Part shown: piece by piece, positions 40,678-62,900 of the stretch | How the letters are laid out: every line of letters begins with the position of its first letter | Position numbering within the stretch: the stretch's first letter is position 1 | Source of the DNA: Rhina ancylostomus | Taxonomy: Eukaryota | Length of the DNA: 64,000 bases | Assembly (NCBI GenBank): GCA_030265395.1 | Contig: JARFYF010000094.1 | Coordinates: forward strand, 20,021,526 to 20,085,525 | Direction: 5' to 3' | Notes under the pieces: generated by a model | Told to the model about the DNA's origin: nothing | The model's database searches: none | What the model saw: the letters and a program-made list of their open reading frames with translations, nothing else | Translations under genes and position numbers: made by a program

Positions 40678-40830
40678 TCAGCGGTCAGGGAGCATCTATG
40701 GAGGGAAATGGAGAGTCAATGTTTCGGGTCGAGACCCTTCATCTGAACTAGTCCAGATGGAGTCCAGATGAAGGGTCTTGATCAGAAACGTCAACTGCCC
40801 ATTTCCCTCCATAGATGCTGCCTGACCCAC
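40678..40830. mobile_element. Palindromic Penelope-derived element next to or inside a CR1 fragment
   Basis: Arms ggtcagggagcatctatggagggaaatgg...gacccttcatctg and cagatgaagggtc...ccatttccctccatagatgctgcctgacc are reverse complements; minus-strand CR1 sequence (IKDNIVGHLEKVKVIRQGPHDFV) adjoins at 40828-40910. Confidence 0.8.
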
Positions 40831-41414
40831 AAAGTCATGTGGACCTTGCCTGATTACCTTGACTTTTTCTAAATGACCTACTATATTGTCTTTGATAGTA
40901 GCTTTTAACATTCTCCTTTCTAACAGTGTGAGATTATCAAGCTCTGCTTGTGTGGTGCTTCAACTAATTAATATTTTCCAGCAGACTAACAGTGTATTCT
41001 AAAGGAAAATAGCCATACATTTTTGTGTTTTTTTTCTAATCTGTTAACAAAATTATTTCTTTTGCTATTTCCAGACAACTTTGGGCAAAACACATTGTAT
41101 TTAGCTCTGTGAGATTCCATGAGAAGAAACTTAATGTTTAGAAAACAAAATGATTTCAGTTTAATTTCTGAGATAGCAATTCATTACTTTTACTCAGAAC
41201 TTATCAGTTTTCTCCTTTATTGAAACTAAGGTCTGTCCTTAACTCCATTTTAACAGTATAGTGGTATCTTGCTCATAATGACAATGCACAGTCTGAATGA
41301 GCATGTTATAGGGTATGCATGCATGGATATCCAATGAATGGGCTTAGCAGTATTGAGCTTTATAGTTCAATAATTTAAATTATTGAATCATAAAGCTCAT
41401 TTTTGCTAAGCCAA

Positions 41415-42495
41415 ATCATATTTCCACCAGCTGCAATGAGATTCCCCCACCAACCACATCTTCTCCCTACCCCTTTCTGCCTTCTGCAGAGACCGCTCCT
41501 ACCATGACAGCCTGGTCTGCTCATCACTCCCCACCCATCCCTCCCTGACCCCTGGCACTTTCCCCTGCAATCATTTCTTCTTACATCTCCTCCCTCACCG
41601 CCATCCAGAGACCTGGTGAAGCAGATATTCACGTGCACCTCCTCCAACTTCATCTAATGCATTCAGTGCTCCCAGTGTGGCCCCCTCTACATCCTCAAGA
41701 CCAAGCACAGACCTGTCCTATTCCCTCACTGACCTGTCCGCCCTGGCCTTCTCTACTGCCAGGGTGAAGCACAACTCAAACCAGAGGAACAACACCTCAT
41801 ATTCCACCTGGGTAGTCTACAACCCAATGGCATGAATACTGAATTTTCCAATTTTAGGTAACCCTCCCCTCTGGTGGGTTGTNNNNNNNNNNNNNNNNNN
41901 NNNNNNNNNNNNNNNNNNNNNNNNNNNNNNNNNNNNNNNNNNNNNNNNNNNNNNNNNNNNNNNNNNNNNNNNNNNNNNNNNNNNNNNNNNNNNNNNNNNN
42001 NNNNNNNNNNNNNNNNNNNNNCCCCTCCCCCTCCCCCTCCTGGTTCTATCCACCCAGTACACCCATGGTTCCACCTGCCATTCACCTGTCCCCTAATGGT
42101 TCCCATTATCACCTCTTTTACATCAGATTCCAGCACAGGTTGCCCTTTCTGTTTCTGCTTGTCACCGTCCAGCAGCTATCTTGAACCTTCATGCTCCCCT
42201 CCCCCCACCTCCCTCCATCTCCATTTTCTCTCTGTGTCTGCCTCCATCTATCATTCACCTGCCACTGTCGCCCAGCTCAACTCTCCCTGCCCTCCTCTAC
42301 TTGGCACAACGTGCCTGTCATAAACACCCCTCCTCAGTCCACCAATCACTGCAGACCCCTGTCTCACTACTCCCCTTCTCTTTATACTGGCCACTCTCAG
42401 TCCTGATGCAGGGTTTCAACCCAAAACATCGACAATTCCTTTCCTCCCCCAGATGCTGCTCAACCCACTGAGTTCCTGCAGAAGATTGCTTGTAA
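41415..42495 (+). mobile_element. Penelope-like element 3' part: GIY-YIG endonuclease remnant plus pLTR
   Basis: GTFPC...FTCTSSNFI*CIQCSQCGPLYI..TK...KPEEQHLIFHLGSLQPNGMNTEFSNFR* (ends 41860), then a C-rich UTR, hammerhead-like motif at 42398-42433 and agatgctgctcaacccactgagttcc tail. Confidence 0.85.
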
Positions 42496-46639: not shown

Positions 46640-49030
46640 CCAACTTGAGGATCAGCACCTCATCTTCTGTCTGGGCACGTTGCAGCCTTTGGGACAATAT
46701 CAAATTCAACAATTTCATGTAACTCACTCTTCCTGTTTGTATCAGAACTTAACAGTTCTCTGTAAGTTTATCCATCTATTATATTAATTCAGGTTTTTTT
46801 CTCTCCACAGGCAATTCTTGAGTTACTCAGCACTTTCAGTATTGTCCTTTTGGTTTCAGAATAGTTATTACTTGCCTTCACAATTCTTACATGTCCATTT
46901 GTTTGTGTTTGGTCTCTCTAACTGGCCTCATTAACCTATCAACCTGACAACTTCATCAACAGCTTATCCCCACATCGGCCCTGGCCTCACCCTACCAGTG
47001 ATATTCTCTTTGTCCTTTGCAACACTCCCCACACTCTATATTCNNNNNNNNNNNNNNNNNNNNNNNNNNNNNNNNNNNNNNNNNNNNNNNNNNNNNNNNN
47101 NNGACCTTAAATATTAAATCTATTTTTCTTTCCATAGATATTGTCTGCCCTACTGAGTGTATTCAGCATTTTCAATCTTAGAGCTGTCCTGGACCATTAT
47201 TCCTCCTCATCCCTTGATACATCTGGTGCTTCAAAGAAAGATTTATTCCTTTCATGGATCAAAGATCATAAATTTCAACAACACTTGAATTTTAACATTC
47301 ATCCACTTCTCCCCCTGACCTTATCTCCACACCATAGTCCCACAGTCCTTATTGTGTTTACAATATCCCCTCTCTGACCCTGATCAATTTATCTCAGAAG
47401 AGGCCACAGTTTCATTCCCCTATATCCTCATCTGAATGAATTCTGAATCCAGCAAGATGTTACACTTTTTTTTCCAACTTCTCCATACCCATTTCTTTTT
47501 ACTCCAACCTCCAGGCCCTTTCTCCTATCTTCAGAATTCCCAATTCATCTGTACCACTTCTTCTTCCTTCTTACCCTCACTGGACCTATTCATTTTTAAC
47601 TGCTAACATAACATCTCAATTCTTCCATTGTCCTTTCTCAACCTCACTGACCTACTTCTAATTGTAGCACTCGGCTCACAAAGAACTAACTTCTTTATAT
47701 GTCCCTCTGGAACATGACATCACCACTGATCAATGGTCAAAGTCAAGTTTATTGTCATATGCACAAATACATGGATGCATAGGTGCAATGAAAAACTTAC
47801 TTTCAGCAGCATCACAGGCACATAGCATCAGATACACAACATTCACAAGAAATACATAAACGAACAACATAAATCATACAAGAAAGAACACAATTAGGAC
47901 AAAAAAAAACAAAGGGCTTTGCAGTGCAAAGTAGTCAAAGTGGTCATAGTGTTGCTATACCTATATAGTGATTAGGGTTATGCAAGTTGGTTCAAGAACC
48001 AAATAAGTTGAAGGGAAGTAGCTGTTCTTGAACTGGTGGTGCAGGACTTCAGGCTTCTGTACTTCCTGCCCAATGGTAGCTGTAAGAAGATGGCATAGGC
48101 CAGATAGTGGGGATCTTTGAAGATAGATATTGCCTTCTTGAAGCAGTGCCTCCTATAGATACTACCCATGGCGGGGAGGGATGTGTGAGTGATGTATTGG
48201 ACTGAATCCATTGCTCTCTGAAGCTTCTTCTGTTCCTGTGCATTCCAATTGCCATTCCAGACCATGGTGCAACCAGTCAGGATACTTCCAACATTACATC
48301 TGAATGAGTAGGTCTTCGATCTGAAATGTTAACTGTTTCGTTTTTCACAGAAGCTGCCTAATCTGCTGAGATTTTCCTGCATTTACTAATTTTATTTCTT
48401 TTTACAGCATTTGCAGTTTTTTTTCACCATTACTGAACATTTGGCCATTATCTCCCAAACAGTCACTAACTCATTTCTTCTGGAGATTTTCATTCTACAG
48501 CCTTCAGCCTGGTACACTACCAATGCTCTCTTTCACCTTGATGGTTTTCGGTGTTCTTGTGCCAGCTGCCTTATTTTCACCATGGAGATTCAGTTCTTCC
48601 ACACCTACACCCTGAAGGTCCTTTGTTTCTCCCCTGAAAAAAAGACCCAACCAGTCCCCTCCACCACCATCTTCCTTCACCTGCGTGAAGTCGGTCTCAC
48701 ATCAAACAACTTTTTCTTTAGCTCCACTCACTTCCTTCAAATCAAGGGTGAAGCTGTGGAAGCCTGACAGGGTCTAGAACTATGCCCAGGTCTTGGAGAG
48801 ATTTATGGACAGTCCATGTTTAAGTCCTGCTCAAGCTCCCTCCCTCACCTCTTCTTTGTGGTACACTGATAGCCACTTCCTGCTGTTGTACAGAACTGAA
48901 ATGTTTCATCAGCTTTGCTGCCAATTTCCACCCTGATGTCAGTTTTGCACAGTCCTTTTCTGACTCTTACCTTCCCTTTCTTGACTGTCCATCCTCCACT
49001 TTCTCTGGGGTTGCTGAGTGTATTCATTAT
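46640..49030 (+). mobile_element. Cluster of decayed Penelope-like sequence (ORF end, pLTR tails, RT remnant), interrupted by a Rex1/Babar LINE
   Basis: LEDQHLIFCLGTLQP at 46645-46690; pLTR tails at about 47100-47175 and 48310-48420; ORF 48411-48767 has TTIFLHLREVGLTSNNFFFSSTHFLQIKGEAV, a Penelope RT motif region (NNF.F...HFLQ.KG.AMG). Confidence 0.7.
47735..48300 (-). mobile_element. Rex1/Babar LINE, 5'-truncated
   Basis: ORF 47978-48265 (KKLQRAMDSVQYIT.TSLP...IYRRHCFKKAISIFKDPH...LPLGRKYRSLK) is homologous to 22391-22864; tail gtcaaagtcaagtttattgtcat. Confidence 0.85.
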
Positions 49031-51380: not shown

Positions 51381-52268
51381 CAACCTGCAGGACAGAAAGC
51401 ACTGAACAATGCAAAATTCAACCAATCTCAATGCTATAACAAATAGTGAGGGGTCATGTTACCAATTACATGATCAAACTTGTTTACTGTAGTTAGCAAG
51501 TGTTAAAATAACCCAAAAAGTGTCATGAAAAGTAACAGTATTGAAGGACATATGGAATAGGAAGAATTTTAAAGATGACATACAGTGACATTCTTTGAAT
51601 AAAAACATTCTTTTTATGAACTGATATTGGTCCCTTCCAGAGAGGAGGAAACCTCAACCTCACTAACTTTAAAATCATTAGCTGTAAATCTGAACACAAT
51701 TGAAAGACATCATTCAGATAAATGCTCATCATCTGTGGATTTAAAACACTGATTTATTTCCTTTCCTTAGTGCAAACACCCAGGCCATATTTAAAATTAC
51801 TTTCGCTGTCTACCAATGACTTAGTGCTGCTCTTTCAGGTGCAGACTTGTTATTTTCCTTATGGCCACACCTGCTTGCATGTTCTCTCGTCTAAACCCTC
51901 TGACCTCATCTGTCTCCCCTTTCAAAACTGTTCCATTTCCCCATAATGACAGTCAGTCACTGTTCTCAGTCGCCATCTCGTTTATCTGGGCATCAATAAC
52001 AATTGCTGGAGAAAAACGACATGCTGGAAGTACTCAACAGGTCGGGTAGCATCTGTGGAGTAGCTACACGCTGCGTCATGGCAATCTTTTGAATTGATTT
52101 AAATGTTTTTCAGTGTTCAAATTGTTTGTACATTTTTAAATTTAACATTAGTTATAAAAGTTTAACAGTCAATTATTTTTAAAATAGTTTTAAAATCTTT
52201 TTGAATATTTCTGAATAGTAGATTTATTGCCAGCAAGTAGAGTCAGATCATGTGACTCAGTGATCTGT

Positions 52269-52833
52269 TGTGGCGACTTACCTTTCATGAACTGGCTCCC
52301 AGGATCGCGAGTGTCGTCGGAGGCCCCGACACAAGATGGTGCGGGGCACTCCTTCTTTGTTGGGCTAGAGGAGCCCGTGCGCGGGAAGGTCACGTGACCT
52401 GCATGTGACGTCAGCGCAGGAACTGTGTTTATTAAAGGGGCAGCGCATCCCAGTCGTTCATTCGACTCTTGGACTTCAAACAAGTGTCTCGTATCTTTAT
52501 TCAGTGTAGCTAGCTGCTACATTGGTGACCCCGATGGGCCCAAACGTTTTTGGACCCACGATGCCTGAACAACAAGAGGTACTGGCAGTAGCCCTTAAAC
52601 TGCCCACCTTTTGGACCCTCCGGCCTCGTGTCTGGTTCGACNNNNNNNNNNNNNNNNNNNNNNNNNNNNNNNNNNNNNNNNNNNNNNNNNNNNNNNNNNN
52701 NNNNNNNNNNNNNNNNNNNNNNNNNNNNNNNNNNNNNNNNNTTATTAAAGGGGCAGCGCACACCAATCGTTCATCGACTCTTGGACTTCAAACAAATGTC
52801 TTGTGTCTTTATTCAGTGTAGCTAGCCGCTACA
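52269..52833 (+). mobile_element. Gypsy-type LTR retrotransposon: 5' LTR, PBS, gag start, gap, end of 3' LTR
   Basis: 5' LTR 52269-52521 (TGTGGCG...GCTACA); its last ~90 bp recur at 52742-52833 ending CGCTACA. PBS TGGTGACCCCGA at 52523. Gag-like MPEQQEVLAVALKLPTFWTLRPRVWF from 52561. Flanks ctgt/ctgc are a near 4-bp TSD. Confidence 0.9.
52523..52536 (+). promoter_or_regulatory. Primer-binding site complementary to tRNA-Trp 3' end
   Basis: tggtgaccccga(tg) versus the canonical tRNA-Trp PBS TGGTGACCCCGACG; 1 nt downstream of the LTR end. Confidence 0.85.
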
Positions 52834-53199
52834 CTGCCAAAATTTTTCATTCCACCAATTTTATGGGAAGCACTTTTTCTGCCACACCCACCCTGCCACA
52901 TGCCGAGGTTTACAAGTGGAAGAGCCAGGCACTACATGCAGCCTCACCTGCAAAGATCTGGCCACCTCCTCATGTAAGGTTATTGAACATTAATGATGCT
53001 CCTCTCTCCACAGATGCAGCCTGACCTACTGAGTACTTCCAGCATTTTCTGTTTACTTCAGATTTCCAGTGTCTGCATTATTCTGTTTTAAGTTAAGTGC
53101 AAACTTGGTCAGAGATCAGCAGTGAGCATGGCAGCTGACTGCTTCTCACCAAGCCTGGACCAGTTCCATTTTCACTAACTGTCTCCTGATGTTATACCT

Positions 53200-53490
53200 G
53201 TGGCAGCATGACAACAATATTAGTTCCAGTTCCCCTCTCCTTATTCCCCTGCAACTTATTCTTGTTCACACATGCACATCCATGCCCATCAACTCTTCAT
53301 GGATTTTATTTTTGCCATTAACCCACACTTAGGGGTAATTTACAGAAGACAATTAACCTAACGAGCACATTTTTGACATGCAGAAGTAAATCAGTGCACC
53401 CAGAGGAAACCCACGTGGTGATGGAGAGAATGTGCAAACTCGGCCCAGTTCCTCAGGTCATGACCAAACCAAGGTCCCTGGAGCTGTGAC
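53200..53490 (-). mobile_element. HE1-like SINE, head interrupted by a palindromic element
   Basis: ggggtaatttacag...caattaaccta...gcacccagaggaaacccac...ggagagaatgtgcaaactc...ggtccctggagctgtga. Confidence 0.75.
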
Positions 53491-53496
53491 TCTCTG

Positions 53497-53737
53497 GAGC
53501 AACACACACAGAATGCTGGAGGAACTCAGCAGGCCAGGCAGCATCTATGGAGGAAAATGAACAGTCCACGTTTCAGGCCGAGACTCTCCATCAATCCTAA
53601 TGAAGGGTCTCAGCCCGAAACAGTGACTGTTTATTTCCCTCCATAGATGCTGCCTGACCTGCTGAGTTCCTCCAGCATTTTATGCGCATTGCTCCAGATT
53701 TCCAGCACCCACAGTCTCTCTTGTGTTTCCATTTTGT
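53497..53737 (+). mobile_element. Palindromic Penelope-derived element with 12-bp TSD
   Basis: Two ~100-bp inverted arms meeting at about 53595, plus a single-copy 3' tail; tgtgactctctg at both 53485-53496 and 53738-53749. Confidence 0.9.
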
Positions 53738-54239
53738 TGTGACTCTCTGTATCACTTTCTGAGTATTTTGCTCTGCTTAATCACTCTATTTCTTCTTTTT
53801 ATTAACATGGCATCTTTTTCTCTTTCCCTTGCTTTAGCTTTTTGATATACTTCACAGATCCTTTCGTGTAGAAGTTGGGCTAGAATTGTGCCATAAACAG
53901 GGCCAAATGGGCCATCTGGAAGCCTGTGGGAAATCTAGAGGTAAGTGCTGTTTGTCTGTCAGTGATATTTTAATCAAATCACTGTATTACCAAATAATTT
54001 CCTAATTTCTCATCACATTAGCAACTGGTGAAGTGTTGACAACTTGCATTATGTGATTTCAACACCACTGTTTAAAGGGAAACTCCAATATGCAATTGGA
54101 AGCAGTTGGAAGTGGGAAGAAGGGATAAAAAAAATCAGCCAATGAAAGGTAGAAGGTCAAAGGCTGCATGCTTCCTCTGCCACATGTCCCTTGATGTGAT
54201 GCAGGGGACTATGAGGATCCAGAGAGAGATCCCTTCACA

Positions 54240-55200
54240 AGCAATGAGCAGAAGAGTTTACCTGGAGATGCCAAGAAGGGAGAATTAATGGTGCTACAAG
54301 AAGTCAGCAGCAGTAAGATACATGCTCCTGGATATAATGCTCATGAGAACAGTGGTGTATTCACCTACTTCCTATTATCATTCCAACTTTCACCCTCACT
54401 GTACTTCAGCGTATCACTATTACAAGAAGGTAAACCCATTCCTTCCAATCCATACATTTGTCCCCTATCGCCATCAAGCTCATTCTTATCCAATGCTATT
54501 CCCTTTTCCTTGTAAGCATTCTCAGCATCAAATGCTCTGCATACTTCCATTATAGTCATCCCCTACCTATTAGGACAAAGCTGGCAGGCAGAGGGAAGAG
54601 GACCTCCGACCATTTCATAGCTAACAAATGTAGAATAACAGGGTCTGAAAATGAGTGGAGTCTCAGCATGCCTGGTAATGAGGGGTTCCCAGATACCCAG
54701 GCACAAAATTAAATATCAGAATGCCACATGGCATTCAAAACTATTTCACCCTGACTTAATGTCAACAATAATTGAAATAAGATAATGTGCACAATGATAA
54801 CATTATACATTCTTACCTAATGTATTCACTCTTCTTCTTACACAGTGTATTCATGCATCTTGAGGGAGTTGACTAAGTAACTGGTAATGACTTCTTGGAG
54901 GAGATGAATCTCTCTGGAGTTGTACTTCCATGCACAGCTTAGATACTCAGACTCCGCTGAGGGAGATGGTTGAATCTGGCATAGTGACTCATACTAGCCT
55001 AGACTAAATAGTGGAGAAAGACATTGGACGGTCCAGAGAACTACAAGCTGTGCTCTCCTTATACCTGTTCTACCCATACCATTAGTCTCACTCATGGTTC
55101 TCTTTTTTCCCTCCTTGCAGAAGGGACCACAGGCACAGGAGAGGCACAGAGAGCCATGGAGGTCCACAATGCTGTACCTCAGGCCCCAAAGACAAGAATT
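54240..55200 (+). pseudogene. Heavily decayed PIF/Harbinger transposase
   Basis: Motifs in the expected order: SRRVYLEM, GFPDTQA...CHMAFK...*LNVNI (compare GFP.VQG.IDCTHVAIK...SLNVQ), *LLGGD, IVEKDIG. Confidence 0.5.
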
Positions 55201-55699
55201 ATCCTGGGGCAGTGGCATAGAATGAACAATATTTGGCAGGCATTCCTGTTATGATGCCTTCTTCATTGGAGCATCAAATGTGTCAACCACAGGAGAGTGT
55301 GGCGTCTTTTATTAATGGATCACTATGAACACCTGTTTGTATAGAATGCGCGGAACTACTAATCCAGGACAATCAAATAATGGCAGGAAAGCTGTAGGCT
55401 CCAAAACCATGAAGGTGTTCTTCTAGAGTATTTCAGGTGTTGAAGCACAGAGCTGAGCTGCCTTGATCCAACTTAGCTCTAAGCACAAGCTGTTGCACCT
55501 TATTGAAGTGCTCAGAAGAGTTAACTTTGCAATTGTAGAATGGGACACATGTGGGTGTGTTGAACATTGATATGACATCAAGTTTCTGTTTTATATAGAG
55601 TTACAAAATTCTTCACTGCTACTTTCAGTTTTAGGATGACTCATCCATACTGAGCAATGGAAGTTGCTGGTTGCAGGATTGCTCTGTGTTAGCAGGAGA

Positions 55700-56260
55700 G
55701 GAAAAGCAATATTGGTGGAGAGTCTAACATCTGTGAACCTAGCCACCACTGACAGGCCTCATGTGATACCTTTGCAATGTTCTTGCATTTTGCAGCTCCT
55801 TTCCCTTCAGCCTCATCTTCCTTCTGGGGTGGCTCCAGGCGATGCCTTCTCCCTCCTGTAGATCTAACTACTTGCTGTTGCACAATGTTTTGCAGAGCAC
55901 AGCACCTCCAACCAGTCCTGTGCCTCTAAATCTGTCCAGGTATTTGAATCACATATTTTGCATGCCATTGAATTGCTTGAAAACACATCTGGTGATGGTA
56001 TGGTATTCATTTTACAGCTTGTGGGCCTCATTCCTCGGGTTTCTGAAAGATGCCATCAGGCACTTTTTAAGTGGCTGTCCTTTTCTCCAAGGGGCTGGCC
56101 AGCAACTTTGCTTTCAGGTGCAAGTAGATGGGGGAAGGTAACTGCTACAGGTCAGAGGCATCATGCCAGCTGCTTGGCAATCTTGCACACACCTACAGAA
56201 ATGATCTTTTGTAATTGTACTCCAACTGCACAATGATGGACTGTGTCATTTTGAAAAGCA
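55700..56260 (-). pseudogene. PIF/Harbinger (HARBI1-like, DDE) transposase C-terminal remnant
   Basis: Minus strand: QSIIVQLEYNYKRSFL*VCARLPSSWHDA ... GQPLGEK/QPLKKCLMASFRNPRNEAHKL*NEYHTITRCVFKQFNGMQNM*FKYLDRFRG ... CCALQNIVQQ, collinear with the HARBI1-family consensus. Confidence 0.8.
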
Positions 56261-56460
56261 ACACTATATATTTTCCTCTACACAGAAACCACCAATAGAG
56301 CACACTGCACTGGCCAGATACCAGAAGAAAGCAAATCCCCATCCTGAAAGCTGCAAGACTGTGTGGCAGCTGTCAATGAGGTGAACAGCAAGTGGTGTTC
56401 TTTCACGATGGACAAAAATACAAACTATTGGCCTACAAATTTGCATGTGCCATCTTACAG

Positions 56461-56925
56461 AAATAAAAGAGAAACAAGGGACTGCAGATGCTGGAATCTA
56501 GATGAAAAACATGATGATGCTGGAGGAACTCAGCAGGCCAGGCAGCATCTGTGGAGAAAANNNNNNNNNNNNNNNNNNNNNNNNNNNNNNNNNNNNNNNN
56601 NNNNNNNNNNNNNNNNNNNNNNNNNNNNNNNNNNNNNNNNNNNNNNNNNNNNNNNNNNNNNNNNNNNNNNNNNNNNNNNNNNNNNNNNNNNNNNNNNNNN
56701 NNNNNNNNNNNNNNNNNNNNNNNNNNNNNNNNNNNNNNNNNNNNNNNNNNNNNNNNNNNNNNNNNNNNNNNNNNNNNNNNNNNNNNNNNNNNNNNNNNNN
56801 NNNNNNNNNNNNNNNNNNNNNNNNNNNNNNNNNNNNNNNNNNNNNNNNNNNNNNNNNNNNNNNNNNNNNNNNNNNAGTACCTAAAGTGGGAGAATTCAAT
56901 ATTCACACCATTAGGCTGCAAAGTC
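56461..56925 (-). mobile_element. Penelope-like pLTR spanning a sized gap
   Basis: ORF end LQPNGVNIEFSHFRY (56921-56876) right of the gap and pLTR tail (actgcagatgctggaatc...gctggaggaactcagcaggccaggcagcatctgtggag) left of it. Confidence 0.8.
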
Positions 56926-57299
56926 TCTTACAGAAGTAAAACATTGTTGCATATCTCCTATTTTATGTTCAAATGTGACAGCTGAGCAGGCACATGCATG
57001 AGTTTCCATTTAAGCGTTCATGAGGTGAGAGAGGACAGATGTGTTGGAGCGTAGCCTATCCAGACATTGCTCCACCAAGAAGAGCAGATAGAGTGTGGCT
57101 CTTTGGTAAGGCTGGAAGGATAAGGGTTAGCATGCTGAATCCTTGCTTGCTTCCTGTAGCACGGTTCATGTAGGTGGCTGTGGTGCCTGGCATGTATGCC
57201 TGAGTCATCCAGGAAGAGGGGTGTGATCTGTACAAATGGGGATAGGAAGGCAGGTTGCTTGAGGATGCCTTTGGTGTGAGCTGTGTTCTTTTCCTTCTC

Positions 57300-57935
57300 A
57301 GGCTGTCCCCCAGGATTGAAGAAGACTTGCTTGCACTCCAGTTCTTTTGGCCCTGAGGTGACTGAAGAGTCCAATATGGAGTCCTGCAGATTCTACCACA
57401 GATGGGGCAGGAGGTGCCTGATGGAACAGATGGATGGGTGGCTTGTGAGGTGAAGTAGATGGGTGGGTTGTTTTTGAGGTGTACTAATTTGATCGCACAT
57501 TTAAGCTAGGCCCCCCAACATGTGGATTTGAGCTTCTCAATATCATCGCAAATGCAACTTCTCCACTTTGAACAGTCATGGGCCAAGGTTCCAAAGGATT
57601 TCCACCTTTTCAGTGAGGTTTTAAGAACATCCTTGAACCTTAACCATATGTTCATTTGGTAATCTCTTCCCATGACATAGCTCACAGTGACAGGTCTAAT
57701 TTGGGAGTCTGGTGTAGGGCATGCAAATGACTTGGCCTGCCCTTTGGAATTGGAATGTAATTAGAGCAGCAGTCCCGTGGATGTTGGCTGGGGAAATGAC
57801 ATGGAATCTAGTTCATTGGATTTGGAGGATTTTGGGGATGCAAAGTTGGTGGTATCTCTCCAGTGCTTTAAAGAGCCTAGCCACCTGCTACAGGTAGTCT
57901 AAGTCTCAGAAAGGCATAGGAAAACTGGGATTAGT
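57300..57935 (-). mobile_element. RTE-clade LINE 3' fragment
   Basis: Minus strand: SET*TT.S, AGQVICMPYTRLP, ELCHGKRLP, FKDVLKTSLK, matching the RTE C-terminal consensus (WAGHV.RMPD.RLPK...EL..GKR..G..KRFKD.LK). Confidence 0.75.
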
Positions 57936-58444
57936 TTTATGAGAAGAAGGTGGCAGCTTTGTATGTGGATATAATATGATTGGCCCTTTAAATAAAATTT
58001 TGAGCCTTCAGCATGAGTTAATTCTTATTTGAATAAAGAGAGACTGTGGTTTTTCAGACCAATGTGGATTANNNNNNNNNNNNNNNNNNNNNNNNNNNNN
58101 NNNNNNNNNNNNNNNNNNNNNNNNNNNNNNNNNNNNNNNNNNNNNNNNNNNNNNNNNNNNNNNNNNNNNNNTAAAATCCAACTGATGACGCGCTTTGGAT
58201 ATTGCATAATGTTTCACATCGTTTGGGTGAGGTTGATACTGGAAAAGTAGTGCTGGTGAATGAGAAAATCTTAGCCAAATGTGAGTAGAACCTAGAAATA
58301 TGCACAGTCTTGCACCGCACTGGATTGGTGCATTTTCAGCAGAGCAAAACTATTTTTTGGCCTTGTGCAGATGAATTTCTCAACCTCAATGTACTAATTC
58401 TGTTGCACAAGAAATGTTACAGATATCTTTCTCCCTTTAAACCT

Positions 58445-58560
58445 ATTTTCATCCACAGTACAATAGTGACTGCTTTTCAAGCGTACTTCATTGGCTGTGA
58501 AGTGTTTGGAGACATTCTGAGATTATGAAAGGAGTTTTTGAAATGCAAATCTTTCTTTCA
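58445..58560 (+). mobile_element. L2-type / Deu-SINE 3' tail
   Basis: acaatagtgactgcttttcaagcgtacttcattggctgtgaagtgtttggagacattctgag...gaaagg...aaatgcaaatctttcttt. Confidence 0.65.
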
Positions 58561-59145
58561 TTTTCACTTTTGAATAAATTGCAAGTTTGTACTGTTTTGG
58601 TCAGTCATGATTGTGATGTCATTACAACATGGCCCAGTCTATTCAGGAAATACTGGAAACAAATACTTATGCTGTTGAGATCTGTATTGTCTGTTGTTAA
58701 TTCTGTTATTCAGCTTTGGTTATTATAATTGGGTTCCTGCCCATATCTATCCTTTGTTAATGCAAATAGAACTTCTTTCATAGACTCCTCCATATCAATG
58801 CCATTGCTTACATGGCTTTTGTTTTTAATAATTTCCTGTTCTTCTCTAGGTTTCCTGCTATGAGCCTCAATCAACCAAAAACAGGCTCTGATATATTTTG
58901 TTTCTAACTGTTGGCTTTGTGACACTACCATGTACTTAGTGATTTTCCTTCTTTGTATCTTCAAGACATAAATGCACTGTTCTTCCAGCAGCCACAGAAA
59001 ATCAAGTTTCAGAAGTCACAAATGAACCTGACACATGACAGCAATTAGGTGAAATCATTGTTTGCACCACTTCTTGATGTTATCTGGAGTGATTTTCTGA
59101 TTGAATCAAATGCCAGTGGAAGATCTGAAGCCTTCCTTAAGAGTG

Positions 59146-59376
59146 GAGGCACAAGAGACTGCAGATGCTGGAATCTGGGGCAACACAAAAAGCACTGGAG
59201 GAACTCAGCAGGTCAGGCAGCATCCATGGAGGGAAATGGACAATTGATGTTTTGGGTCGAGACACATGGCTGAAGATGATTCCCAATGGACAGTCTCGAC
59301 CTGAAATTTTGACTGTTCATTTCCCCCGAAGATGCTGCCTGACCCACTGAGTTCCTCCAGTGCCTTTTGTGTTGCT
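59146..59376 (-). mobile_element. Palindromic Penelope-derived element with perfect 15-bp TSD
   Basis: Inverted arms (gcaacacaaaa...ctggaggaactcag..ggtcaggcagcatc / gatgctgcctgaccc.ctgagttcctccag..ttttgtgttgc); ccttccttaagagtg at both 59131-59145 and 59377-59391. Confidence 0.9.
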
Positions 59377-59624
59377 CCTTCCTTAAGAGTGCATTCTTAT
59401 ATGTCATTCAGGTGGGATATGCATTCAGTGTCTGTATTATGCTCTGGTATCTTTTCCATGCACTACTTGGCCACTTTATATTTTAAAGCTATGCAGCATG
59501 TGACAGACATTATTAATCTTGTGGTTTTGAACCATAAGACTCTCAATGGTCTGAATCTGAAGTTTTGCTATAAAGTTCCACTGGTAAAGTTAAAGTATCA
59601 TGGCAGGTGCTTGGGGGAAAAGGG

Positions 59625-59900
59625 ATTGGTTAAATAACTGGGCTGTCAATTTAGATGTCTGGTTTGATGATCCAGAGGCTGGAGTTTAAATCCCACTATG
59701 GCAGCTTGGGAATTTAAATTCCATAACAGTGGCCATAAGATCACCAGATTGGCCCAAAAACTTGTCTGATTCATTAATGTCCTTTAGGGAAGGAAATCTG
59801 CCCCTTTCCCCCGCCTCGCCAACAGCCATGTGGTTGACGTGGCCCAGCAAGCTATTAAGTTCAATGGCAATTAGGAATGGGCAATAAAGACATGTCTTGC
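59625..59900 (+). mobile_element. tRNA-derived SINE of a second family
   Basis: B-box-like gagtttaaatccc, central ctgattcattaatgtcctttagggaaggaaatctgcc, tail ggcaattaggaatgggcaataaa. Confidence 0.6.
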
Positions 59901-62900
59901 AAGCTGTGACTGTTAAACCCTTGTATTTGTAATTAATTATACAGATTTACTGATGTGAACAACGGCTGTTTTCCATATTGCCACATCCTATCCATAAGGC
60001 ATGTCCAGAACTGTAATCTGTCTTAAAGAGGAAGTACACAGAGTATTCTTCAAAAGGATATGTACTAACGTTGCATAACAATAACATATCAACATTGCAA
60101 AATCCCATGAATGAGTGATTTAAAAAAAAACTGGCCAACTCAGGCAGTGTTGGCCATAGACCAGTTGTAACTTGAAATAAAAGTCCATTCTGTATTTATC
60201 AGCCATTGTATTATATCTAAGGAGCCAAATGGGCATGCACATACTATCTGCATTGTTCAATAATCAATAGTATAGAATAATCTGCTGAAACCGGTAAAAA
60301 TATCTATTGACAGGAAAGATGAGAGTCCCAGAACAAAGCATCAGTCACCGTTTTGTTAGATATATGCACAGCAAATTGACTTTGTGCAGATTGTTTCCTC
60401 TGGTAGTCTTGAAGAAAGTAGAAACATAAAAGTCGAAGGTCATAGGCACCTTGTCTATCAGCGATACTGCTGGAAATTCTCTGCATTTTTACACAAGGAA
60501 AATGCAATGCTCTAATTGTGTCACAATGTTGATCCAGATCAAACTCACAGAGAACCCAAATGCGGCACACCAATACACGACTAGAGTCAGGANNNNNNNN
60601 NNNNNNNNNNNNNNNNNNNNNNNNNNNNNNNNNNNNNNNNNNNNNNNNNNNNNNNNNNNNNNNNNNNNNNNNNNNNNNNNNNNNNNNNNNNNTCCAGCAT
60701 GGAATTCATGTGCTGGACAACAAGGCATTAATGGAGCCAAATTGAGGGCCAGAACTCAGAACCATGACAAATTGTTTCTCTACCGTGTGGTTCTGAGCAG
60801 ACAATGCCAAGCAGCTGCAATGGCAGACGTTGCCTACGGTTCCATGTCATATCTCATTGTCCTGTTACATTATATCCAACAGGAGGGAAGCAGTAAGAGC
60901 AATCCTACAGTTTACAAGTCCATGGAGCAAGAATAAGTGGAGAGTGCAACATTTGTGGAATTAGCTCCTGACATGCGAGAACCTGGCTGGCCTATAATGC
61001 TTATTTGAAACTGGCAAGGTTTATACACGACACAACATGCACATTGCAATTGCCTGTGGTATGTATAAGAAGATTTACATTGCTAATGAAGATGTTGCAA
61101 AAGAGTGTGTCGCTAGAAGGGAATCAGGACAAAGTTTTCAAGAGTGGAGCTGAGTAGCAGAATAGAAAGAGAACATATTTCTGAGTAGAAAGAGAACGTA
61201 TTAAAGAATTTATCGTACACATATGCACAATTCCAGACAACGGAAAACCAGCAAGAATTTGCAGAAGACACTGAAGAATTTTCCCCTCAAATATCAGGAT
61301 TGCATGCACTAAAAATCATATTAGCAATTGTTCATTCACATTGTAGTGTACTATTCAAGCTTTAGGTGAATTGCTGGTAAAATAATTGCTGTTCATGTCT
61401 TTATGGGGAGTTTTTTTTGCACATTGCCACATATACTTCTGCTTCAAATTTTTTCCCAAGGAGCCAACAAGTTAATACTTGTGATGAGCATGCTGGTGCC
61501 AAAATGCTCAGTTTTAAAAATTAATATCAGTTCTATGCTTTGTCTTGCCCAACCGTCAAAGTTTCAGGCAAACAAATTGATTTACGTTGACAGCATACAT
61601 TCCCACTCCACACCCGCTTCTCTCCCCCCACCCCCAATCCTGCCATCCCACAACCAAAGCAGGGGGAAAAATAGTTGATTTTAAACCAAAAAGTGTATTG
61701 TGTACATTGTAGATTTTTTTTGTGTCTTTTATTTGATAGAAGTTCTGGCATTGTTTGTTGTTTATTGTTAATGTCCAAGCTAGATGTGCATTTTTTATGC
61801 ATGTTGTCGCAAAGCTTACTGGCAAGCAATAGATGCTTCATTCAGATAAACCATGAGATAATATTTGAAAGAAGGAATTCATAGTTAAATTAAACATTTT
61901 GCATAATATCCTTTTCGAAACGTCAAGAAGAATTGCCAGAGGGAAAGAGCATGAACACTCCTGATCACTTGTTACTTTGGATTTTAAATTACAGCACTGA
62001 GTCACCAGTTTGACATTCCAAAGCAAATTCAGCCAGATTAATGAGATCAATGAATAATCAAGTAAAATTTTTACAAAGACAATTATGCAAATGTATAAAG
62101 TTTACTGCCTTTTGCAGTCAATTGAATTAACCAGAGTTACATGGATATGTATGATCATATTCCTTAAGAGATCATTCAGTTTTATTTAGTGCAAATAACT
62201 AAAACATGTTTTTCCTCAAAACAGATAGAAAACCAGGGTTTGAAAGCTAGTGTATTAATCATATTCTAAAACATAAACTAAATTTACTAATGTGAAAATA
62301 ATGTCAATTTTCTTAAAATTATTTCAAAAACTTTGTTTATTTTCAAAAGCATAAAATAATTTTTGAATATTGACATTGGGACATTGCATTGCTATCAGAT
62401 GGTACAGTGGGCATTGAAATTTTACTGTAGCCATTTTTATAGAGAATGGTGCTGGCAGGTACACAATCCCTTTGGATAAAGACTGGCTGATCCAATGGAT
62501 GAAAATGAGTGGGAGTAATTCATACTAGGTCACCAGCACCAAACCCAGGCAGGAGATGTATACCACTGGTTGTACACATTATTCAATATTCAGTTCTTTT
62601 GGAGCCACTGCATGTGTGTGGGGTAAGTACAATCAGTGGGAATTATTTTCACACACTTTCAGTGCTAGCAATCAGAGACAAACTTCTCTTTTAATATGCC
62701 ATCATTATTCCCTTTAACTGGGTTCACAAAGCCTGCCCTTTATATTGATGACTAACATACTTTATTTCAATACAATATCTTGACCAAAAGCCTGCCAAAG
62801 ACAGAAATTTACCTAAGTATATGATTAACCTATTAAAATAACTGGTTGCATTTATTAAGTTGCAGAGATAAAAATGACCACTTCAATTTGTTTTGAGATT

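What the first reader, a model, noticed from the sequence alone, without database searches (positions are those of the whole stretch)
59131..59391. Short fold-back Penelope-derived insertion with a perfect 15-bp TSD, turning at the hammerhead-like motif
Seen: a ~230-bp element made of two inverted copies of the Penelope pLTR tail, flanked by ccttccttaagagtg on both sides. The same design occurs at 53497-53737 (12-bp TSD) and 40678-40830, and probably 52015-53090. In the three clear cases the turn lies at or within the hammerhead-like motif. Established: Penelope-like elements often have inverted termini and carry minimal hammerheads in their pLTRs. Inference: a recurrent turn point, similar size and clean TSDs suggest either a non-autonomous hairpin family mobilised in trans, or ribozyme structure directing template switching during reverse transcription. 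This is the best candidate for an under-described system here.
Basis: partly seen in the sequence, partly recalled or inferred. Interest (0 to 1): 0.7.

Follow-up and report, generated by a model that had tools for sequence, protein, structure and literature searches.

The report
Two-ended Penelope insertions mark transcript start
This mirror-image repeat is a real but dead stub of a known kind of jumping gene (Penelope-like), one of many that were each built separately; their ends suggest that both cut DNA strands likely primed copying, which likely ran off the start of the element's RNA rather than stopping at its ribozyme.

Summary
In detail: exact 15-bp TSD, a head-to-head pair of Penelope pLTR ends, a 34-bp tail on one arm only. 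The parent is a Neptune/Nematis-type PLE, and this layout is published. There is no hairpin master: 95 of 95 junctions differ and no column separates the two arm types. The ribozyme cut site is not the turn: 0 of 264 arm ends lie at it. The clustering is real but sits 4 nt upstream of the CUGAUGA box (mode 24 of 264), also in single-arm copies, 30 nt below a TATA-like box. An extra G precedes it genome-wide (667 G, 436 T, 362 A; control site 157 G, 192 A), so it is likely the RNA 5' end. In 58 of 64 pairs one arm has the tail and one lacks it, and 35 of 68 are non-nested, which fits separate priming from both strands. No RNA data were available. The scan had already noted the fixed stop and two-strand priming on other DNA of this genome; I found no note or paper with the start-site/extra-G reading.

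The parts
59131..59145 (.). left target-site duplication, 15 bp
   Evidence: exact match to 59377-59391; two occurrences in the window
59146..59263 (-). tail-bearing pLTR arm, reference 1121 to 1004; 59146-59178 is the 34-nt tail
   Evidence: alignment to the family reference
59264..59292 (.). 29-nt junction filler; 59268-59280 is an exact 13-nt antisense copy of the element's 3' UTR (reference 821-833), 59285-59293 matches reference 1024-1032
   Evidence: shuffle p 0.003
59293..59376 (+). tail-less pLTR arm, reference 1004 to about 1088
   Evidence: arms identical at 71 of 85 columns
59377..59391 (.). right target-site duplication
53485..53749 (.). second insertion: 12-bp TSD (53485-53496, 53738-53749), tail-less arm 53497-53591 (-), tail arm 53592-53730 (+) starting at reference 989, then a short run-on into the element's downstream sequence
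40678..40830 (.). third head-to-head pair; both arms start at reference 990, 11-nt filler repeating the arm start, outer ends lost, no TSD
52006..53077 (.). two older-subfamily arms (52006-52060 minus, 53003-53077 plus); not shown to be one insertion
   Evidence: no TSD

Best explanation
The element is a dead, individually formed head-to-head insertion of a Neptune/Nematis-type Penelope-like retrotransposon, likely made when both nicked target strands primed reverse transcription at two internal sites in the RNA leader and the short cDNAs, which likely tend to run off the RNA's 5' end, were joined. SHOWN (reference coordinates): the order 3' UTR, TATA-like box (960-965), A990, minimal hammerhead (989-1026), outer ends at about 1087 and 1122, and an ORF start about 35 nt further on; staggered TSDs of 10-16 bp; one tail arm with one tail-less arm; inner ends peaking at A990 with an extra G; unique junctions. 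FROM PRINT (anole Poseidon in vitro, PMC11167929): both strands are cut and extended, two internal RT starts bound the tail, and the ribozyme is dispensable. INFERRED: A990 is the capped transcription start; each arm is a separate cDNA; the inner ends are trimmed and joined by host repair; the stubs cannot move again because they lack the downstream ORF-start sequence that the anole protein needs. In the 59131 copy both cDNAs were lost back to 1004 and patched with 29 nt, partly copied from the element.
For: Parent element: longer copies run into a GIY-YIG ORF end (PF01541, E 0.0098, below the curated cut-off) with a CX4CxxC linker readable in 5 of 30 ORF-end loci and cysteines between GIY and YIG. 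TSD: 43 of 75 tail/no-tail pairs, lengths 10-16, mode 14-15, against 0 of 148 swapped-flank controls. Two outer ends: 58 tail/no-tail, 2 tail/tail, 4 no/no of 64 classifiable among 80 pairs (p 9e-12). Non-nested arms in 35 of 68 pairs. Inner ends: 264 arms, 24 at A990, 77 at 986-993, 9 at 1018-1025, 0 at 1022; rate per nt 0.069 against 0.0048. Extra G: 19 of 28 arms; 12 of 19 after removing element-templated junctions, against 31 of 110, p 0.007; genome-wide exact counts 667 G, 436 T, 362 A, against 157 G and 192 A at a control position, p 1e-10. G is not a subfamily variant: 1 of 41 read-through arms. A TATA-like motif lies at -34 to -23 in 24 of 39 read-through copies and in 0 of 39 at -22 to -11. 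An untemplated 5' G is attributed to copying of the cap for L1 and SVA (PMC3287187, passages).
Against: There is no RNA evidence that A990 is a start site. An extra G shows only run-off from a physical RNA end; RT terminal-transferase activity on an uncapped end would look the same. Only 24 of 264 ends are exactly at 990, and 62 of 264 arms extend upstream of 986, so longer read-through RNAs were also templates; the finding's own filler copies sequence 160 nt upstream of 990. The pyrimidine tract plus CAG at 989-991 also resembles a splice acceptor, and D. virilis has an intron end at this spot (PMC4209133). Non-nested arms could arise by later deletion at a palindrome centre. The biochemistry cited is from the Poseidon clade, where the RT starts lie inside the ORF; here they lie upstream of the apparent ATG. 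Copies are about 8% diverged from the reference, so arm ends are uncertain by a few nt.
Confidence: 0.62

Rival explanations
1. Same dead PLE stubs, but the second arm is made by cDNA snap-back (self-priming) from one primed strand, with later loss at the hairpin centre.
For: Self-priming was proposed for PLE inverted junctions (PMC3846280) and snap-backs are seen with R2 proteins in cells (PMC11371274). In 33 of 68 pairs the tail-less arm is nested in, or within 5 nt of, the tail arm. The arms share subfamily markers.
Against: In 35 of 68 pairs neither arm contains the other; 22 differ by more than 20 nt and 14 of those keep a TSD. Tail-less arms show the extra G themselves (7 of 10 at 990, some element-templated) and end at a fixed site near 1087, which single-arm copies share.
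Confidence: 0.15
2. The pile-up at 986-993 is not a transcription start but a splice acceptor, or an RT pause at the base of helix I or the pyrimidine tract.
For: Pyrimidine tract plus CAG at 989-991. The D. virilis intron ends at the 5' end of helix I (PMC4209133). Ends spread over 987-992.
Against: The mode is 990, not 992. The preceding base is G. No recurrent upstream exon is seen in 95 junctions or in 30 loci read. A pause inside a template would not give a position-specific extra G.
Confidence: 0.13
3. Hammerhead cleavage or folding directs the turn.
For: Inner ends do fall within the motif's span in 58 of 95 pairs. A first pass without CpG tolerance showed 11 of 100 anchor arms ending at 1020-1027.
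Against: That bump largely vanished with CpG-aware scoring: 0 ends at 1022, and 0 of 41 in the intact-core subfamily at 1018-1025. The subfamily marked by a changed core (CAGATGA) still peaks at 986-993 (41 of 109). Direct tandems rejoin at 987-996 or upstream, not at the cut site. HHR mutants insert normally in vitro (PMC11167929).
Confidence: 0.06
4. A non-autonomous hairpin master replicates in trans.
For: Narrow size range (5-95%: 128-288 bp) and clean TSDs. L247 and L326 share about 30 nt of junction. The arm tree needs 19 label changes against a shuffled mean of 23 (25 and 40 of 500 shuffles as low), with one supported 4-row group of tail arms.
Against: 95 of 95 junctions are distinct, no diagnostic column exists, and cross-copy identity is the same for tail-tail, tailless-tailless and mixed comparisons (0.804, 0.798, 0.801). 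L326 abuts an assembly gap. Three of the four grouped tail arms come from one similarity-selected set (ascertainment likely, not checked).
Confidence: 0.04

Closest known systems
Insertion units of EN+ Penelope-like elements (Craig et al. 2021 PMC8557442; Arkhipova et al. 2013 PMC3846280; Schostak et al. 2008 PMC2377424)
   Same: Inverted 5'-truncated copy next to a direct copy, 30-40 bp tail on one end only, TSD, partial tandems, promoter in the pLTR.
   Different: Here most units are pLTR-only (about 130-290 bp) and the truncation point is strongly preferred. D. virilis Penelope has a TATA-less promoter and an intron before the ribozyme; this family has a TATA-like box and likely starts 4 nt before the core.
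Neptune/Nematis clade PLEs
   Same: C-terminal GIY-YIG with cysteines between GIY and YIG, and an upstream CX2-5CxxC linker.
   Different: No RT-based tree was made, so Neptune and Nematis are not separated. No microsatellite targeting is evident in the 38 TSDs listed.
Anole Poseidon PAc mechanism (Frangieh et al. 2024 PMC11167929)
   Same: Two internal RT start sites bounding a tail; both strands cut and extended; ribozyme dispensable.
   Different: Different clade. PAc start sites lie 111-118 nt inside the ORF; here they lie upstream of the apparent ATG. The parts read do not derive inverted pairs from the two sites or report a preferred 5' end.
Opposite-strand minimal hammerhead pairs (Cervera and de la Pena 2014 PMC4209133)
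   Same: Dual min-HHRs 100-700 bp apart on opposite strands, and many solo motifs attributed to truncated PLEs.
   Different: That work proposes HHR cleavage and circular templates; the junctions here do not fall at the cut site.
Full-length L1/SVA insertions with an untemplated 5' G (PMC3287187)
   Same: Extra G at the RNA 5' end, attributed to copying of the cap.
   Different: In L1 this marks full-length copies. Here it marks 100-135 nt products, because priming starts near the RNA's 5' end.

Membership tests
EN+ Penelope-like elements | C-terminal GIY-YIG endonuclease with cysteines between GIY and YIG, upstream of the pLTR | tested here: met
   Motif read in longer copies; Pfam PF01541 E 0.0098, below the curated cut-off
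EN+ Penelope-like elements | Telomerase-like RT in one ORF with the endonuclease | tested here: inconclusive
   Only decayed ORF start and ORF end were recovered; no full-length copy and no RT profile test
EN+ Penelope-like elements | 30-40 bp tail on one end; inverted 5'-truncated copy | tested here: met
   Outer ends at about 1087 and 1121-1122; 58 of 64 pairs heterotypic
EN+ Penelope-like elements | Partial direct tandems (pLTR, ORF start, pLTR) | tested here: met
   26 of 30 loci fetched with the ORF start have a downstream direct pLTR copy
EN+ Penelope-like elements | Minimal type-I hammerhead in the pLTR | tested here: met
   Family reference holds core boxes and helices I and II at 989-1026; intact CTGATGA base in 21 of 61 arms covering 995. 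Read by eye; Rfam gave no hammerhead hit in 52000-60000. Core absent from the 59131 copy
Neptune/Nematis clade | CX2-5CxxC linker upstream of GIY-YIG | tested here: met
   L096, L104, L112, L115, L120; definition from PMC8557442
Neptune/Nematis clade | Placement by RT phylogeny | not tested
   No intact RT recovered
Penelope/Poseidon clade | Absence of the CX2-5CxxC linker | tested here: not met
   Linker present
Non-autonomous hairpin family (MITE- or SINE-like master) | Shared internal junction and arm-specific diagnostic changes across copies | tested here: not met
   95 of 95 junctions distinct; no diagnostic column; one shared junction, next to a gap
Retrozymes (HHR-circularised non-autonomous elements) | Unit junctions at the hammerhead cleavage site (definition recalled; see also PMC6155905 legend) | tested here: not met
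   0 of 264 ends at 1022; tandem junctions at 885-996, one at 1047
Existing Dfam/Repbase family | A consensus already describing this family | not testable with these tools
   No Dfam or Repbase access

The most novel reading that the evidence does not exclude
These stubs are a genome-wide fossil record of the Penelope insertion intermediate. One RNP uses the two tail-bounding start sites in a coordinated way, one for each nicked strand. It copies only the 100-135 nt capped leader, like retroviral strong-stop DNA, and the two cDNAs are joined head to head or jump onward into the ORF start to make tandems. This would explain the inverted pLTR, the one-sided tail and the mass of solo hammerhead stubs with one mechanism that needs no ribozyme, and would map the promoter of a vertebrate Neptune-type element from DNA alone.
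Probability: 0.5. Interest if true: 0.6.

Novelty: new member of a known kind. Interest (0 to 1): 0.38.

Why it matters
The element is not a new system. But how PLEs make inverted repeats and one-sided tails is described as unresolved (PMC8557442), and this genome holds very many such pairs (40 in 0.87 Mb of random DNA; roughly 100,000 by crude extrapolation). Their end statistics give sharp predictions: a start site at A990, two coordinated priming sites, no role for ribozyme cleavage. These can be tested with CAGE data and the existing in vitro PLE assay. The result also warns that hairpin or hammerhead scans in such genomes will call these stubs new families or microRNA precursors.

Tried and rejected
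Rfam scan of 52000-60000: only sub-threshold hits (mostly miRNA-like hairpins), no hammerhead model. A search meant to reach the Penelope ORF used a stretch that turned out to be an unrelated LINE; its loci served as extra background. A Pfam accession I recalled was not in the library. PDB sequence search: nothing relevant. ESM Atlas unavailable. A second Pfam scan of ORF pieces did not run, so the ORF start has no family assignment; that it resembles PLE N-termini is my recall. An apparent end cluster at the ribozyme cut site was rejected as CpG decay breaking the alignment. I guarded against other subfamilies diverging upstream of 990 by using young, pattern-anchored copies and a quality cut: of the 148 copies from the random, LINE-anchored and window sets, 90 were dropped. 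My first clade label, Poseidon (in the notebook), was dropped. Filler templating: 6 of 27 fillers match the element at p<0.05, and 2 of those are missed arm pieces, so it is occasional. The arm tree had only 78 columns and is weak. Searches that found no paper with the start-site or two-strand reading. Supplement search of PMC11167929 found none of four terms in 3 text files; its supplementary figures were not visible and may bear on novelty. Arkhipova 2006, Evgen'ev and Arkhipova 2005, Pyatkov 2004, Dfam and Repbase were not read.

Full report
Observation. The 15-bp direct repeat is exact at 59131-59145 and 59377-59391 and occurs nowhere else in the window. The 231 bp between fold as one long hairpin (z -13.7). 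The arms are unequal: the left one carries 34 extra bases. Both stop at the same family position (1004) and are separated by a 29-nt filler, so the CUGAUGA box is absent from this copy. The copy at 53497-53737 has a 12-bp TSD and the same asymmetry. The copy at 40678-40830 has lost both outer ends and has no TSD. The 52015-53090 case is an older subfamily without a TSD and is not shown to be one insertion.

Parent element. I fetched related loci from the window's own genome (2.2 Gb), 100 random 10-kb stretches, and the remaining 70 of the first 100 of 171 exact pattern hits. A reference of the element's last 1122 nt was built in a script. Longer copies run upstream through a pyrimidine-rich 3' UTR into an ORF end with a GIY-YIG motif (Pfam PF01541 E 0.0098, below cut-off), preceded by a CX4CxxC linker in 5 of 30 loci. 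By the definitions in PMC8557442 (passages) this is Neptune or Nematis, not Poseidon. Some copies run past 1122 into a shared sequence with an ORF start about 35 nt on; 26 of 30 such loci have a direct pLTR copy downstream, each at its own junction. The random sample held 130 insertions, 40 of them head-to-head pairs, in 874,966 called bases. Earlier notes call the host a ray; I did not test that.

No master element. Among 104 well-preserved pairs, 95 have a junction free of N, and all 95 differ. No column separates tail arms from tail-less arms (best p 0.011 over 99 columns). The two arms of one copy agree at subfamily markers more than permuted pairs do (22 of 25, 49 of 63, 51 of 68; p 0.0005 each; of three other columns two were weaker and one showed nothing). 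Against this: L247 and L326 share about 30 nt of junction, with L326 beside an assembly gap, and a weak 78-column tree shows borderline clustering of arm type (19 changes against a shuffled mean of 23).

Outer ends. TSDs of 10-16 bp (mode 14-15) were found in 43 of 75 tail/no-tail pairs and in 0 of 148 swapped-flank controls. Outer ends fall at about 1087 and 1121-1122. Of 80 pairs sampled without regard to the tail, 64 could be classed: 58 tail/no-tail, 2 tail/tail, 4 no/no. In 35 of 68 such pairs the tail-less arm reaches more than 5 nt further 5' than the tail arm, so neither arm contains the other. Simple snap-back cannot produce that without later deletion.

Inner ends. With CpG-tolerant alignment, 264 arm ends from 183 insertions peak at A990 (24), with 77 at 986-993, a declining tail downstream, 9 at 1018-1025 and none at the predicted cut (1022). 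The peak is present in tail arms (19 of 81), tail-less arms (33 of 81) and single arms (25 of 102). A first pass without CpG tolerance had suggested a bump at the cut site. The intact-core subfamily has 0 of 41 ends there. A990 lies 4 nt upstream of the core box and about 30 nt below a TATA-like motif (24 of 39 read-through copies, 0 of 39 in a control interval). The base before A990 is G in 19 of 28 arms, and in 12 of 19 after removing element-templated junctions. Whole-genome exact counts give 667 G, 436 T and 362 A, against 157 G and 192 A at position 994 (p 1e-10). Of 30 of these loci read, 2 were plain read-through copies; the other 28 had 18 G. An untemplated 5' G in L1 and SVA copies is attributed to copying the cap (PMC3287187, passages). 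Still, 62 of 264 arms extend upstream of 986, so longer RNAs also served as templates.

Mechanism. The anole Poseidon protein cuts and extends both strands, starts RT at two internal sites that bound the tail, needs sequence downstream of them, and does not need the ribozyme (PMC11167929, parts 1-2 of 4). Applied here (inference): a staggered cut gives two primers; one starts at 1122 and one near 1087; each copies toward the RNA 5' end at A990; the two cDNA ends are trimmed and joined. That yields a head-to-head pair with one tail and a TSD. The hammerhead lies near the turn only because it is the first thing in the transcript. Confidence 0.62. Rivals: snap-back 0.15, splice acceptor or RT pause 0.13, ribozyme-directed 0.06, master element 0.04. 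No RNA data could be had to test the start site.

Known and new. The inverted truncated copy with a one-sided 30-40 bp tail and TSD is described in PMC8557442 (passages), PMC3846280 (passages), PMC2377424 (parts 1-3 of 4) and PMC8969392 (passages). Opposite-strand minimal hammerheads 100-700 bp apart are in PMC4209133 (parts 1-2 of 4). PMC11371274 and PMC6155905 were seen as passages. Earlier notes of this scan reported the same family, the fixed stop before the ribozyme and two-strand priming on other DNA of this genome; I had reached these readings before looking (notebook). A word search for the start-site/cap reading found no note, and paper searches found no paper with it. Subscription papers, the supplementary figures of PMC11167929, Dfam and Repbase were not seen.

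Verdict. A real feature and a new member of a known kind. Interest 0.38.

Noticed in passing
L381-L410 (also L125, L279, L363): Many internally deleted direct tandems: pLTR, 110-630 nt of ORF start, then a second pLTR; 9 of 26 second copies begin at 987-996, 16 further upstream, one downstream. This suggests RT jumps back into the ORF-start region.
   Followed up: partly
L247 and L326, junction next to the pattern match: Two unlinked copies share about 30 nt of junction; L326 abuts an assembly gap. Rare duplication, secondary mobilisation or mis-assembly.
   Followed up: no
family reference 995 (e.g. window 40761-40775): A major subfamily has CAGATGA instead of CTGATGA in the hammerhead core (39 against 21 arms), so it likely spread with an impaired ribozyme.
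   Followed up: partly
window 52266-52835: LTR-type element (two similar repeats, tRNA-primer-like site after the first, assembly gap inside) lying between the two older Penelope arms.
   Followed up: no
window 41420-42492, 605-687, 46640-47172: Older, longer Penelope copies that include the endonuclease end of the ORF.
   Followed up: no
window 41334-41419: AT-rich 86-bp palindrome (84% self-match) directly upstream of the Penelope ORF fragment at 41420.
   Followed up: no
L004:1-1010: A LINE fragment with a readable RT frame directly upstream of a Penelope 3' end; the family is abundant in the genome.
   Followed up: no
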